A stretch of DNA of 64,000 nucleotides from a virus. Shown here one piece after another: positions 22,887 through 26,559 of the stretch; within the stretch, counting starts at the first letter, position 1; each line of letters begins with the position of its first letter. Both the position numbers and the translations under genes were made by a program. Location: positions 1 to 64,000 of the IMG/VR virus record IMGVR_UViG_3300021962_000025. One strand, given 5' to 3'. The notes beneath the pieces were generated by a model that was given only the letters and a program-made list of their open reading frames with translations, had not been told where the DNA came from and did no database searches.

Positions 22887-22912
22887 AAAAAAGGGATCCG
22901 AAGATCCCTTTT
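22887..22912 (-). terminator. terminator after tmRNA (bidirectional-capable)
   Basis: AAAAGGGATC-cgaa-GATCCCTTTT. Confidence 0.8.
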
Positions 22913-23324
22913 GGTGGAGGTGGCGGGGTTCGAACCCGCGTCTTGTTCGTCCCAACCATAAAGGACTACACGTTTAGGTTAAGGTTTTTCATACCTTCCA
23001 AAATATTTGGTTCCTATTTTGACATTGTTACCAACAACTGTGTCGAGTTCACTTTTAATAAGGTAGTACTCTGAACGAGACCTTTGACACTCCAAGTGGT
23101 ATCACACTATAAGACTTCTGTTCCAAGGTACATGTCCACCGACCCGTCGTAGGAATAACCTTAGGCTACTGCTACTTTAGAATCAACAGATACGAGACCC
23201 ATTAATTCCATTTGTGAATAAACGTTGCCGTCTAAAAAAACGTCACCATAGATTAAAGTGATAGGAAACATCTCACTACGTGCCCCGTATGACTGACTAC
23301 GCCAATCAATGCCATGTCACCCCC
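22912..23324 (-). ncRNA. ssrA: tmRNA, one-piece; tag (A)GNVYSQMELMGLVSVDSKVAVA*
   Basis: 5' GGGGGUG pairs with 3' CACCUCC-A-CCA including the G3.U alanine determinant; T-arm GCGGG-UUCGAAC-CCCGC; resume context UUAGAC-GGC; tag frame 23229-23161. Confidence 0.93.
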
Positions 23325-25165: not shown

Positions 25166-25239
25166 TGGACCTAGAGGGACTCGAACCCCCGACCAATTGA
25201 TTATGAGTCAACTGCTCTAACCGACTGAGCTATAAGTCC
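25166..25239 (-). tRNA. tRNA with CAT anticodon, most likely Ile2 (lysidine); elongator Met not excluded
   Basis: Cloverleaf GGACTTA...TAGGTCC-A; loop CT-CAT-AA; G1-C72 and no triple GC anticodon stem, so not initiator. Confidence 0.85.
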
Positions 25240-25344
25240 AATAAAAAAACGGCGGGGGTTTGCGACCCCCATTTCTACTTCTGAATATGCTGATTAAGTC
25301 GACCTCACAGCAGGAATTTCATTTTCGTCTAATTACCGTCTTCG

Positions 25345-25418
25345 CTCTCCATCGAGGACTTGAACCTCGGACCTATTGATTAACAGTCAACCGCTCTAAC
25401 CGACTGAGCTAATGGAGA
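25345..25418 (-). tRNA. tRNA-Asn(GTT)
   Basis: TCTCCAT/ATGGAGA-G; loop CT-GTT-AA. Confidence 0.93.
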
Positions 25419-25427
25419 ATTGATATG

Positions 25428-25504
25428 TTGGGATGACGGGACTTGAACCCATATGTAACCACTTACTCTTTCTACAAGGTATAAGCTTGAGGAGATACAT
25501 CCCA
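25428..25504 (-). ncRNA. non-canonical tRNA-like RNA (no D-arm before anticodon arm; possible UAU anticodon)
   Basis: Acceptor TGGGATG/CATCCCA, T-arm ATGGG-TTCAAGT-CCCGT, hairpin CAAG-CTTATAC-CTTG, then hairpin GTAA-GTGG-TTAC. Confidence 0.65.
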
Positions 25505-25509
25505 ATCTG

Positions 25510-25582
<73 letters not shown>

Positions 25583-25585
25583 ATT

Positions 25586-25661
25586 AGGTTGAGGTAGGAA
25601 TCGAACCTATCACGTCACGTCCCGTGTTTGCGGGATTGCTCTACCACTGAGCTACTCAACC
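25586..25661 (-). ncRNA. tRNA-like RNA with aberrant 6-nt anticodon loop (CAAACA)
   Basis: Canonical acceptor GGTTGAG/CTCAACC and D-arm GCTC-AGTGGTA-GAGC, T-loop TTCGATT; anticodon arm TCCCG-CAAACA-CGGGA lacks U33. Confidence 0.7.
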
Positions 25662-25668
25662 CGTTTGA

Positions 25669-25827
25669 TTATTCCGCCACGGAATCCGTCGATACCGAAT
25701 CAACAACCACTTCTTCAACAGATACGGAATCAACAACCACTTCTTCAGAAGTTTGATCTTGATTGTTACTGTTGTTACAAGCGATTAAAGTAGCGGTAGC
25801 GAATAACAGAAAAAATAATTTTTTCAT
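25669..25827 (-). CDS. 52-aa Bacteroidota-type lipoprotein with EEVVVDSVS repeat
   Basis: MKKLFFLLFATATLIAC lipobox; start reassigned from the ORF that overlaps tRNA-Asp. Confidence 0.75.
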   Translation of the reverse strand: MKKLFFLLFATATLIACNNSNNQDQTSEEVVVDSVSVEEVVVDSVSTDSVAE

Positions 25828-25888
25828 TTCACTATTTTGTTTAATCAATTTATCATGGATTCTTTTGATGGTGACCATTATCCATTTG

Positions 25889-25962
25889 CGGTATGGACGG
25901 GACTCGAACCCGCGACCACTTGAGTGACAGTCAAGTATTCTAACCAGCTGAACTACCACACC
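25889..25962 (-). tRNA. tRNA-Asp(GTC)
   Basis: GGTGTGG/CCATACC-G; loop CT-GTC-AC. Confidence 0.93.
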
Positions 25963-25968
25963 GAATCA

Positions 25969-26099
25969 GCAATCAGGGTGGGATTCGAACCCACATCCAC
26001 TTTCGGTCGGACTGGCTTGTCATTTTGACTTCCCACGTTGTACACCGTGTTGTCCTGTGGAGTACCGATACCTACACATACCAATGTGCGACCTGATTG
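25969..26099 (-). ncRNA. 131-nt tRNA-like RNA with a large structured insert in place of the anticodon loop
   Basis: Acceptor CAATCAGG/CCTGATTG, D-like GCACAT-TGGT-ATGTGT, T-arm GTGGG-TTCGAAT-CCCAC. Confidence 0.65.
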
Positions 26100-26150
26100 T
26101 TTGCCACATTAGCTCCACTTTGTTTTTCCCAAAGAACAAAGAAACTTTTG

Positions 26151-26235
26151 CGGAGAGTGAGAGATTCGAACTCCCGGAACCTTTCAGTTCAATAGTTTTC
26201 AAGACTACCGCAATCGACCACTCTGCCAACTCTCC
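26151..26235 (-). tRNA. tRNA-Ser(TGA)
   Basis: GGAGAGT/ACTCTCC-G, type II variable arm, loop CT-TGA-AA. Confidence 0.93.
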
Positions 26236-26259
26236 AAACGACTTACATGGCATGCTAAG

Positions 26260-26332
26260 TGACCCTGGAACGACTCGAACGTTCGACCGACTGCTTAGAA
26301 GGCAGTTGCTCTATCCACTGAGCTACAGGGCC
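26260..26332 (-). tRNA. tRNA-Arg(TCT)
   Basis: GGCCCTG/CAGGGTC-A; loop CT-TCT-AA. Confidence 0.93.
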
Positions 26333-26412
26333 ATAAAAAAGAGACCCGGGCCCAACAAGCCGCCCGTTGTGAAACGAAATTAGACGGAAGGGCCCTTTTG
26401 AAGGTCTCTCAG

Positions 26413-26498
26413 TACCACCTGCCGGAATCGAACCGGCACGGACATCACTGCCCAAGGGATTTTAAGTCCCTCGTGTCTACCTATTTCACCAAGGTGGC
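26413..26498 (-). tRNA. tRNA-Leu(TAA)
   Basis: GCCACCT/AGGTGGT-A, type II, loop CT-TAA-AA. Confidence 0.93.
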
Positions 26499-26512
26499 AA
26501 TACTTTTCCCAT

Positions 26513-26524
26513 ATGTCAAAGAAC
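26513..26524 (-). promoter_or_regulatory. boxA-like antitermination element GTTCTTTGACAT
   Basis: Immediately downstream of promoter 26529-26559; identical copy at 27024-27035; resembles boxA TGCTCTTTAACA. Confidence 0.55.
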
Positions 26525-26528
26525 ACTT

Positions 26529-26559
26529 CAAATATACAGGCAATATTCTTTAAAATCAA
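26529..26559 (-). promoter_or_regulatory. strong consensus Bacteroidota promoter TTG-N20-TATATTTG for tRNA operon
   Basis: Exact -33 TTG / -7 TAnnTTTG. Confidence 0.8.

What the first reader, a model, noticed from the sequence alone, without database searches (positions are those of the whole stretch)
25428..25504. tRNA-like RNA with rearranged arms: no D-arm before the anticodon hairpin, extra hairpin after it, UAU triplet
Seen: good acceptor and T arms. Only 7 nt separate the acceptor from the hairpin TCAAG-CT TAT AC-CTTGT, and a GG-containing hairpin GTAA-GTGG-TTAC lies 3' of it, where the variable loop should be. Known: bacteria normally avoid tRNA-Ile(UAU) and read AUA with lysidine-modified CAU; the phage also has a CAU tRNA at 25166. 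Inference: an arm-swapped tRNA architecture that might still form an L-shape, acting either as a TilS-independent AUA decoder or as a non-decoding tRNA mimic.
Basis: partly seen in the sequence, partly recalled or inferred. Interest (0 to 1): 0.75.

Follow-up and report, generated by a model that had tools for sequence, protein, structure and literature searches.

The report
Phage isoleucine tRNA with rewired core
This 77-base gene is most probably a working phage isoleucine tRNA (anticodon UAU, for the codon AUA) in which the D-arm pieces and the anticodon arm lie in a different order from the universal cloverleaf; it belongs to a large, unannotated family found in many phages and some bacteria.

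Summary
The element (window 25428-25504, minus strand) is real. ARAGORN and Rfam's tRNA model both miss it. Pattern scans, BLAST and a covariance model recovered at least 118 distinct 77-nt relatives. They occur in IMG/VR phage contigs, 77 cultured Streptomyces phages, a crAss-like Bacteroides phage and about 43 bacterial genomes.

Covariation fixes a three-way junction:
- a 7-bp acceptor stem;
- a 3-bp helix (11-13:37-39) that encloses the anticodon arm;
- a T arm.

That stretch instead reads as a standard D-loop (A-R-N-Y-G-G-U-N-R) joined directly to the T arm. R42:Y52 covaries as the Levitt pair 15:48 does.

Every member has an isoleucine-type anticodon (UAU, GAU or CAU) and discriminator A. 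Members usually fill an isoleucine slot that the neighbouring canonical tRNAs leave empty.

This phage is AT-rich. AUA makes up 32% of its Ile codons, and its other tRNAs with a U at the first anticodon position read A-ending codons. I therefore read the element as a decoding tRNA-Ile(UAU), confidence 0.75.

No expression or charging data exist, and I found no paper describing the family. This scan reached the same reading earlier on another genome (note e1-5806014).

The parts
25498..25504 (-). Acceptor stem, 5' strand (RNA positions 1-7, UGGGAUG)
   Evidence: Pairs with 25429-25435. All 7 pairs show compensatory changes across 77 homologues, and 95% of cells are paired.
25495..25497 (-). U8 A9 U10 connector. 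U8 and A9 are as in canonical tRNA; U10 lies opposite U40.
   Evidence: Invariant in alignment A1 and in the Streptomyces phage copies found by BLAST. The patterns fixed these bases in only some scans.
25492..25494 (-). Stem II, 5' strand (C11 U12 C13)
   Evidence: Pairs with G37 A38 G39. Paired in 100% of 77 sequences. Pair 12:38 is CG 41, UA 24, GC 10, AU 1, UG 1. Pair 13:37 is CG 64, GC 11, AU 1, UA 1. Pair 11:39 is CG 76, AU 1. RNAalifold predicts this helix unaided.
25474..25491 (-). C14 plus the anticodon arm: U15.U31, a 4-bp stem 16-19:27-30, and the 7-nt loop CUUAUAC. The anticodon UAU lies at 25481-25483.
   Evidence: Stem paired in 99.4% of cells, and all four pairs have double changes. 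The loop keeps U33 and A37. Anticodons in 118 distinct members: UAU 87, GAU 20, CAU 11, and no other.
25469..25473 (-). A32 + G33 A34 A35 A36: a 5-nt strand on the 3' side, between the anticodon stem and stem II
   Evidence: GAAA is invariant in alignment A1, whose retrieval patterns did not fix it for most rows. It is also present in the BLAST-found Streptomyces phage copies. Its role is inferred.
25466..25468 (-). Stem II, 3' strand (G37 A38 G39)
   Evidence: See stem II, 5' strand.
25453..25465 (-). Connector U40 A41 A42 G43 U44 G45 G46 U47 U48 A49 C50 A51 U52. It reads as a D-loop (A14 R15 N16 Y17 G18 G19 U20 N20a R21) plus C, A and Y48.
   Evidence: The family consensus is A-R-N-Y-G-G-U-N-R. 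R42:Y52 covaries: AU 86, GC 28, AC 4 in 118 members. In a tree-aware test, 5 of 5 independent pairs change the same way, p about 0.06. The hairpin 39-42:47-50 is not supported.
25436..25452 (-). T arm (AUGGG-UUCAAGU-CCCGU)
   Evidence: Canonical T-loop UUCRANU. Stem pairs 53:69 and 54:68 covary, and 55:67 and 56:66 covary in the wider set.
25428..25435 (-). Acceptor stem, 3' strand (CAUCCCA) plus discriminator A77. No CCA is encoded.
   Evidence: The discriminator is A in 118 of 118 members. A minority of relatives encode CCA (for example L002).
25253..26559 (-). Surrounding tRNA transcription unit. A promoter-like site lies at 26559-26531. It is followed by tRNA-Leu, Arg, Ser, Asp, an aberrant tRNA and Pro, then this element 4 nt after tRNA-Pro, then tRNA-Asn 9 nt later. 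A terminator-like hairpin lies at 25271-25253.
   Evidence: ARAGORN calls and consensus scans. These are pattern matches only; transcription has not been shown.

Best explanation
The element is a functional phage elongator tRNA-Ile with anticodon UAU. It supplies decoding of AUA, a codon this AT-rich phage uses heavily, without needing lysidine (TilS).

Its secondary structure is a three-way junction, not a cloverleaf. A 3-bp D-stem-like helix (plus U10.U40) continues directly into the anticodon arm. The D-loop sequence follows that helix and runs straight into the T arm.

Inferred 3D logic:
- The helix and the anticodon arm stack into a rod of 5+1+4 layers, as in a normal tRNA.
- U8, A41 (=A14), R42:Y52 (=15:48), G45 G46 (=G18 G19) and the T-loop rebuild the usual elbow, so the L-shape and the anticodon-to-CCA distance are kept.
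- The invariant GAAA bulge may fill the groove that nucleotides 9, 45 and 46 normally occupy.
- RNase P, the CCA-adding enzyme and EF-Tu would then see an ordinary acceptor/T-arm limb. IleRS would see an ordinary anticodon loop and A73.

The 2D structure, family membership and anticodon restriction are shown here. Expression, charging, the 3D fold and the reason for the rewiring are inferred.
For: 1. Structure. Among 77 (A1) and 118 distinct homologues, every proposed helix has compensatory changes, and RNAalifold returns the same structure unaided.
2. tRNA core signature. U8, A-R-N-Y-GG-U-N-R, the R42:Y52 covariation and the T-loop UUCRANU are all present.
3. Anticodon. Only UAU, GAU and CAU occur. 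Scans for members with a non-A middle base found only false positives in IMG/VR and in JGI metagenomes. The discriminator is A in 118 of 118.
4. Complementarity. A rewired GAU or UAU copy shares a locus with a canonical tRNA of the same anticodon in 7 of 156 cases, and in 3 of 32 in tRNA-rich loci. Often the other Ile isoacceptor is canonical (15 of 32). One example is crAss-like Kehishuvirus tikkala, with a canonical UAU and a rewired GAU.
5. This phage. It has 36% GC, and AUA is 32% of its Ile codons. Its other tRNAs with U at the first anticodon position (Arg UCU, Leu UAA, Pro UGG, Thr UGU, Ser UGA) read its preferred A-ending codons.
6. Position. The element is packed 4 and 9 nt from flanking tRNAs in one operon.
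7. Breadth. It is kept in phages of Actinomycetota and Bacteroidota hosts and in bacterial tRNA arrays.
8. Precedent. E. coli HisRS, EF-Tu and ribosome accept a D-armless tRNA (PMC11551756).
Against: - There is no RNA evidence. No RNA run holds the locus, so expression, processing, CCA addition and charging are untested.
- E. coli IleRS charges tRNA-Ile(UAU) poorly. An unmodified UAU anticodon also reads AUG on E. coli ribosomes (PMC3575796). Function therefore depends on host IleRS and on U34 modification, and both are unknown here.
- No 3D model could be made, so the L-shape argument is reasoning by equivalence.
- Several 'invariant' columns were fixed by the search patterns (39-41, 45-47, 50-51, and the T-loop in scan 25).
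- Some members have two or three acceptor-stem mismatches (for example L200 and L226).
- Streptomyces phage Jay2Jay carries canonical Ile(GAU) and Ile(UAU) as well, so in that phage the element is redundant.
Confidence: 0.75

Rival explanations
1. The element is a non-decoding tRNA mimic. It is made and processed like a tRNA, but it acts as a decoy or ligand. It might soak up a host tRNA-targeting nuclease or toxin, or bind IleRS or another tRNA-binding protein. It would not deliver isoleucine at the ribosome.
For: - The core is non-canonical, and standard detectors reject it.
- The same operon holds other aberrant tRNA-like elements.
- Carriers such as Streptomyces phage Jay2Jay also encode Ro-like protein, RNA ligase and polynucleotide kinase, which are tRNA-damage themes, and they have canonical Ile tRNAs already.
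- Phage tRNAs are known to be shaped by tRNA-targeting defences (PMC10264068, PMC13096335).
Against: - A decoy has no need to track the three Ile anticodons, or to fill the Ile slot that canonical neighbours leave empty.
- The decoding-relevant features are all kept: a 7-nt loop with U33 and A37, a 5-layer anticodon stem, A73 and a 12-bp acceptor/T limb.
- 18 of 168 loci show no canonical tRNA near the element.
Confidence: 0.15
2. The molecule is a tRNA, but it folds. It would have two independent hairpins (the anticodon hairpin and the GG tetraloop hairpin GUAA-GUGG-UUAC) joined by single strands. There would be no helix 11-13:37-39.
For: In this copy the hairpin can form, and it appears in the single-sequence minimum-energy fold. 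Pairs 40:49 and 42:47 remain pairable across the family (UA or UG; AU or GU).
Against: - The hairpin shows no compensatory change.
- Pair 41:48 is unpaired in 36 of 77.
- G39 covaries with C11, not C50. A42 covaries with U52, not U47.
- The consensus fold omits the hairpin.
- The single-sequence fold is no better than shuffles (z = -1.47).
Confidence: 0.06
3. The element is an inactive relic: a rearranged tRNA-Ile pseudogene carried along within the tRNA cluster.
For: It fails tRNA detectors. Other odd tRNA-like sequences lie nearby.
Against: At least 118 distinct versions exist across unrelated phages and bacteria. Stems are 95-100% paired, the pattern of change is compensatory, and core nucleotides are invariant. 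The population contigs laid on the region show no listed differences inside the element.
Confidence: 0.03

Closest known systems
Canonical bacterial and phage tRNA-Ile (GAU; CAU modified to lysidine; the rare UAU type, as in Mycoplasma mobile, PMC3575796)
   Same: - 7-bp acceptor stem and 5-bp T stem, with T-loop UUCRANU.
- U8 and A9.
- A D-loop sequence of the same 9-nt form (A-R-N-Y-G-G-U-N-R).
- A 7-nt anticodon loop CU-NAU-A.
- Discriminator A.
- Location in tRNA operons.
   Different: - The order of the parts. The D-stem-like helix encloses the anticodon arm instead of the D-loop.
- The D-loop follows the helix and replaces the variable loop.
- There is an extra invariant GAAA bulge.
- The junction is three-way rather than four-way.
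- Rfam RF00005 and ARAGORN do not recognise it.
D-arm-lacking mitochondrial tRNA-Ser(AGY/UCU) of animals (reviewed in PMC7609411)
   Same: There is no D hairpin between the acceptor and the anticodon arm. The anticodon helix is extended and the junction is three-way.
   Different: - The mitochondrial forms replace the D arm with a short connector on the 5' side and lose the GG/T-loop elbow contacts.
- Here the 5' connector is only 3 nt.
- A full D-loop sequence with GG is kept on the 3' side, next to a canonical T arm.
- The setting is phages and bacteria, not organelles.
Engineered D-armless 'mini HisT' accepted by E. coli translation (PMC11551756)
   Same: It shows that bacterial aaRS, EF-Tu and ribosome can use a non-cloverleaf adaptor.
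   Different: It is artificial and simply lacks the D arm. It is neither rewired nor natural. That paper's abstract states that all known bacterial tRNAs are cloverleaf.
tRNA-like domain of tmRNA (RF00023)
   Same: It has an acceptor stem and T arm, with a D-loop analogue that is not closed by its own stem. It gives the only (weak) Rfam match (11.9 bits).
   Different: In tmRNA the D-analogue lies 5' of the long helix, there is no anticodon loop, and the RNA carries an mRNA-like tag. The score is far below the gathering score of 47.
allo-tRNAs with 8/4 or 9/3 acceptor/T limbs (PMC5389517)
   Same: They are non-canonical tRNAs found in metagenomes and phages that standard tools miss.
   Different: allo-tRNAs keep the cloverleaf order and change stem lengths. 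Here the 7/5 limb is canonical and the core connectivity is changed.

Membership tests
Canonical cloverleaf tRNA (Rfam RF00005) | 7-bp acceptor stem plus a 5-bp T stem with a T-loop UUCRANU | tested here: met
   Sequence; covariation of both stems.
Canonical cloverleaf tRNA (Rfam RF00005) | Anticodon arm: 5-bp stem and a 7-nt loop with U33 and a purine at 37 | tested here: met
   U15.U31 plus 4 covarying pairs; loop CUUAUAC.
Canonical cloverleaf tRNA (Rfam RF00005) | D-arm hairpin (stem 10-13:22-25 closing the D-loop) between nucleotide 9 and the anticodon arm | tested here: not met
   Only U10 C11 U12 C13 C14 lie there. The helix partner is 3' of the anticodon arm, and the D-loop sequence follows it.
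Canonical cloverleaf tRNA (Rfam RF00005) | Score at or above the family's gathering threshold (29 bits), or a call by ARAGORN | tested here: not met
   No RF00005 match even at E<=10. There is no ARAGORN call in bacterial mode, with a lowered threshold, or with introns allowed. Relatives are also not called.
tRNA-Ile identity | Anticodon NAU (GAU, UAU, or CAU to be modified) with A37 after U36 | tested here: met
   UAU here. The family has only UAU 87, GAU 20 and CAU 11.
tRNA-Ile identity | Discriminator A73 | tested here: met
   A77 here, and A in 118 of 118 members. That A73 is an IleRS determinant is from established knowledge of E. coli tRNA-Ile identity.
tRNA-Ile identity | Aminoacylation with isoleucine by IleRS | not testable with these tools
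   This needs a charging assay. E. coli IleRS charges UAU tRNA poorly (PMC3575796).
Rewired-core tRNA-Ile family (defined in this scan; model R1) | Helix 11-13:37-39 enclosing the anticodon arm, an N-GAAA strand on its 3' side, then U-A-R-N-Y-GG-U-N-R-C-A-Y directly before the T arm | tested here: met
   All features are present. Model R1 gives 96.4 bits here against <=23.9 bits for the canonical tRNAs of the same genome. The window copy is in the model's seed, so its own score is partly circular. Independent copies in five bacterial genomes score 86-89 bits.
D-armless mitochondrial-type tRNA | The D arm is replaced by a 5' connector, and the D-loop/T-loop GG contacts are lost | tested here: not met
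   The connector lies 3' of the anticodon arm. It keeps invariant GG and a canonical T-loop. ARAGORN in mitochondrial mode at the default threshold does not call it.
tmRNA (RF00023) | Gathering score of 47 bits; a tag reading frame; pseudoknots | tested here: not met
   11.9 bits, with only the acceptor/T part aligned. At 77 nt there is no room for a tag.

The most novel reading that the evidence does not exclude
This is a natural, widely spread elongator tRNA that is not a cloverleaf. The D-arm and anticodon-arm segment is in effect permuted in place (order 22-44, linker, 10-21), giving a three-way junction that rebuilds the standard L-shape from the same tertiary contacts. It would be used for isoleucine by phages of several bacterial phyla and by tRNA arrays of some bacteria. 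If so, the universal cloverleaf connectivity is not required for translation in bacteria. Every standard tRNA finder would also be missing a class of Ile tRNAs.
Probability: 0.7. Interest if true: 0.9.

Novelty: new variant of a known kind. Interest (0 to 1): 0.85.

Why it matters
The cloverleaf connectivity of tRNA is treated as universal outside animal mitochondria. [quoted passage not shown]

A conserved, covarying, Ile-specific tRNA with different core wiring would have several consequences:
- It would be a natural experiment on which features of the tRNA core matter, the contacts or the chain order.
- It would show that annotations of phage and bacterial tRNA sets, and codon-usage arguments built on them, miss an isoacceptor. 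The element is unannotated in about 76 Streptomyces phage records, and one record labels it tRNA-Leu.
- It would offer a new scaffold for orthogonal tRNA engineering.
- It raises a concrete question: why isoleucine only? Possible answers are escape from a tRNA-targeting defence, altered AUA/AUG discrimination, or a frozen accident.

Cultured carriers exist, so all of this can be tested directly.

Tried and rejected
- **ARAGORN.** With a lowered threshold, with introns allowed, and in mitochondrial mode at the default threshold, there was no call at the element. Mitochondrial mode at 80% threshold gave mostly noise across the region.
- **Rfam.** At E<=10 there was only a weak tmRNA hit.
- **Single-sequence folding.** It is not distinguishable from shuffles (z = -1.47) and is misleading about the GG hairpin.
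Rejected on covariation.
- **C14:N32 as a Watson-Crick pair, and U10:U40 as a standard pair.** Neither is standard. They are kept only as possible non-canonical layers.
- **Rewired members for other amino acids.** The non-A35 pattern gave one false positive in IMG/VR and two in JGI metagenomes.
- **RNA evidence.** No RNA holder is listed among the public runs.
- **Laying metagenome contigs on the region.** This gave no informative variation inside the element.
- **E. coli complete genomes.** No match to an enterobacterial-MAG member.
- **tilS in the five Cytophagales carriers.** All have tilS, so in them the rewired tRNA does not replace the lysidine route.
- **Literature.** Six searches and four papers read found no description of the family.
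- **3D modelling.** No RNA 3D modelling tool was available.

Full report
**What is there**

On the minus strand of 25428-25504 lies a 77-nt unit. In order it contains:
- a 7-bp acceptor stem (UGGGAUG/CAUCCCA);
- U8 A9 U10;
- C11 U12 C13;
- C14;
- an anticodon-type hairpin (U.U plus 4 bp, loop CUUAUAC, anticodon UAU);
- A32 G33 A34 A35 A36;
- G37 A38 G39;
- UAAGUGGUUACAU;
- a canonical T arm (AUGGG-UUCAAGU-CCCGU);
- the acceptor 3' strand and discriminator A.

It sits 4 nt after tRNA-Pro and 9 nt before tRNA-Asn, in a co-oriented tRNA cluster. The cluster lies between a promoter-like site and a terminator-like hairpin.

ARAGORN does not call it in any sensible mode. Rfam's tRNA model gives no match even at E<=10, and the only hit is a weak tmRNA match. 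The host record is an IMG/VR phage contig of 183,758 bp, estimated 59% complete, with 36% GC.

**Relatives**

- An exact-pattern scan of IMG/VR first found one relative. Its 45-nt core was identical, and its acceptor stem differed at compensating positions.
- After sorting, these gave 76 distinct 77-nt members.
- BLAST against GenBank phages found the element in 77 Streptomyces phages (Samistivirus, for example Jay2Jay) and in the crAss-like Kehishuvirus tikkala of Bacteroides cellulosilyticus. It is unannotated in all of them except EGole, where it is labelled tRNA-Leu (UUA).
- One scan of GTDB species genomes gave about 43 further members. Five are in cultured Cytophagales: Chryseolinea, Chryseosolibacter (two species) and Ohtaekwangia. 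There the element lies in large chromosomal contigs, within arrays of up to 17 canonical tRNAs.
- In all, 118 distinct sequences were collected.

**Secondary structure**

On the 77-sequence alignment A1, counts for the proposed structure are as follows.

| Helix | Cells paired | Pairs with double changes |
|---|---|---|
| Acceptor | 95% | 7 of 7 |
| Helix 11-13:37-39 | 100% | 3 of 3 |
| Anticodon stem 16-19:27-30 | 99.4% | 4 of 4 |
| T stem | 97% | 2 of 5 |

- For helix 11-13:37-39, pair 12:38 is CG 41, UA 24, GC 10, AU 1, UG 1.
- The other three T-stem pairs were fixed by the search pattern.
- No shuffle of 500 reached the observed covariation, and sliding the partners by 1 to 3 columns collapses it.
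- RNAalifold predicts exactly this structure without guidance.
- The highest-ranking mutual-information column pairs (the top 18 listed) are exactly these pairs plus 42:52.

Where G39 becomes U (Jay2Jay), C11 becomes A while C50 stays. So the molecule is a three-way junction. The D-stem-like helix closes over the anticodon arm, and the GG stretch is a single-stranded connector.

**The connector is a D-loop (sequence shown; geometry inferred)**

- Positions 41-49 read A-R-N-Y-G-G-U-N-R. This is the length and consensus of a bacterial tRNA-Ile D-loop (A14 R15 N16 Y17 G18 G19 U20 N20a A21). The comparison with E. coli tRNA-Ile is from my own knowledge.
- R42 covaries with Y52, the base just 5' of the T stem: AU 86, GC 28, AC 4. 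This is how the Levitt pair R15:Y48 behaves.
- The search pattern allowed all four R/Y combinations, so it did not impose this covariation.
- On a tree built without those two columns, 5 of 5 independent pairs on supported branches change together. That is p about 0.06, the best a sample of five can give.

Inference on the fold:
- The helix and anticodon arm form a stack of 5 (anticodon stem, including U.U) + 1 (C14 opposite N32) + 4 (three pairs plus U10.U40) layers. This equals the 5+1+4 layers of a normal anticodon/D limb.
- The strand that leaves the far end of the helix runs into A41, as strand 10-13 runs into A14.
- U8, A41, R42:Y52, G45 G46 and the T-loop could therefore rebuild the usual elbow.
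- Each new chain junction (9 to '22', '44' to '10', '21' to '48') links residues that are neighbours in the canonical core.
- Formally, segment 10-44 is permuted in place. A tandem duplication followed by deletion could produce this.
- The invariant GAAA bulge may occupy the D-stem groove, where nucleotides 9, 45 and 46 normally form triples.
- None of this could be modelled here.

**Function**

- The anticodon is UAU in 87, GAU in 20 and CAU in 11 of the 118 members. These are the three bacterial isoleucine anticodons, and no others occur.
- A pattern demanding a non-A middle base found only false positives in IMG/VR and in JGI metagenomes.
- The discriminator is always A.
- Rewired GAU or UAU copies seldom share a locus with a canonical tRNA of the same anticodon: 7 of 156 overall, and 3 of 32 in loci with 10 or more tRNAs. 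In 15 of those 32 the other Ile isoacceptor is canonical.
- Kehishuvirus tikkala, with a near-complete tRNA set, has a canonical Ile(UAU) and a rewired Ile(GAU).
- In this phage AUA is 21.5 per thousand codons and 32% of Ile codons. Its other tRNAs with U at the first anticodon position (Arg UCU, Leu UAA, Pro UGG, Thr UGU, Ser UGA) match its preferred A-ending codons. A UAU tRNA fits the set.

These points favour a decoding tRNA over a decoy. They do not prove charging.

**Caveats**

- No RNA run holds the locus, and the contigs laid on it add nothing.
- Some invariant columns were imposed by the patterns. However, the BLAST-found Streptomyces copies keep U8 A9 U10, GAAA, UA, GG and CAU.
- E. 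coli IleRS charges a UAU tRNA poorly, and an unmodified UAU anticodon misreads AUG on E. coli ribosomes (PMC3575796). The host's IleRS and any U34 modification therefore matter.
- The five Cytophagales carriers all have tilS, and Jay2Jay has canonical Ile(GAU) and Ile(UAU). The rewired form is therefore an addition there, not a replacement.
- Why the wiring is kept is unknown. Escape from tRNA-targeting defences is plausible in view of PMC10264068 and PMC13096335, but it is untested.

**Novelty**

- Searches of PMC and bioRxiv found no description.
- A 2020 review of non-canonical tRNAs has no phage or bacterial case of this kind (PMC7609411).
- A 2024 paper states that all known bacterial tRNAs are cloverleaf, and shows that E. 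coli's machinery tolerates a D-armless tRNA (PMC11551756).
- This scan had already noted the same family on another genome and reached the same reading (e1-5806014). I arrived at mine before seeing that note.
  - bacterial carriers that have tilS;
  - the cultured-phage carriers;
  - the complementarity counts;
  - the negative scans for non-Ile members;
  - the tree-aware test of 42:52.

**Verdict**

The element is best read as a rewired-core tRNA-Ile(UAU) for AUA. Confidence in the 2D structure and family is above 0.95, and confidence in the decoding function is about 0.75.

Noticed in passing
L081, L082, L089, L101 and about 40 other IMG/VR loci (for example L082 12861-12954 +): A second phage tRNA-Ile(UAU) type of 91-95 nt. 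It has a normal D arm but a long variable arm, whose hairpin carries a conserved 7-nt loop YAGAUNA. ARAGORN calls it tRNA-Ile(tat). A class-II-like Ile tRNA is itself unusual.
   Followed up: partly
window 25586-25661 (-): A tRNA with canonical arms but a 6-nt anticodon loop. ARAGORN calls it 'tRNA-???' with anticodon (aa), and Rfam's tRNA model gives only 38.8 bits. It lies immediately upstream of tRNA-Pro in the same operon.
   Followed up: no
window 25909-26100 (-): A T-arm/acceptor-like sequence gives a weak tRNA match (25970-26038, 17.8 bits). There is also a sub-threshold YrlA (Y RNA-like) match at 25909-26023 (33.1 bits against 69). This may be another aberrant tRNA-like RNA next to tRNA-Asp.
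   Followed up: no
window 22912-23324 (-): A phage-encoded tmRNA (Rfam 79.9 bits). ARAGORN reads the tag as VDSKVAVA*.
   Followed up: no
L269 858-934, L274 1344-1420, L291 280-356, L301 3620-3696, L308 3545-3621, L284 6646-6722: Cultured Cytophagales (Chryseolinea, Chryseosolibacter, Ohtaekwangia) carry one near-identical rewired tRNA-Ile(UAU) each. It lies in chromosomal contigs, most within tRNA arrays (the largest with 17 genes). All five genomes searched also have tilS. These are convenient phage-free systems in which to test the RNA.
   Followed up: partly
L263 295-371 (Streptomyces phage EGole MK494112 75265-75341): The family member is annotated as 'tRNA-Leu, codon recognized UUA'. By the family structure the anticodon is GAU (Ile), so the label looks wrong. 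In the other Streptomyces phage records listed, no feature is annotated under the match.
   Followed up: partly
L258 1910-1986 (+): A variant family member. The 5-nt N-GAAA strand is replaced by a 10-nt stretch (UGCGUUUCGC) that could form a mini-hairpin, and the 5' side is also altered. This suggests the linker can be remodelled.
   Followed up: no
L006, L023, L030, L038, L039, L041, L069, L075: A conserved tRNA-like RNA. It has an acceptor stem GGAGGUG/CGCCUCU, then AGUGGUUAAU directly before a T arm, and a palindromic UUGGUACCAA element in place of an anticodon loop. It is not a member of the Ile family and is unexplained.
   Followed up: no
L004 6117-6206 (-), and about 20 loci that share the 3' end ACAGGTTCGAATCCTGTCCTGACTAC: An abundant ~90-nt class-II-shaped phage tRNA-like gene. 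ARAGORN calls it tRNA-Ile(tat), with the anticodon at position 38. In many contigs a CCAC...GUGG hairpin precedes the T arm. Its identity is unclear.
   Followed up: no
L323 (Streptomyces phage Jay2Jay KM652554 58000-107000): Carriers of the rewired tRNA in Streptomyces also encode a Ro-like RNA-binding protein, a T4-like RNA ligase, polynucleotide kinase, a tmRNA and many duplicated isoacceptors. This is a tRNA damage-and-repair gene set.
   Followed up: no
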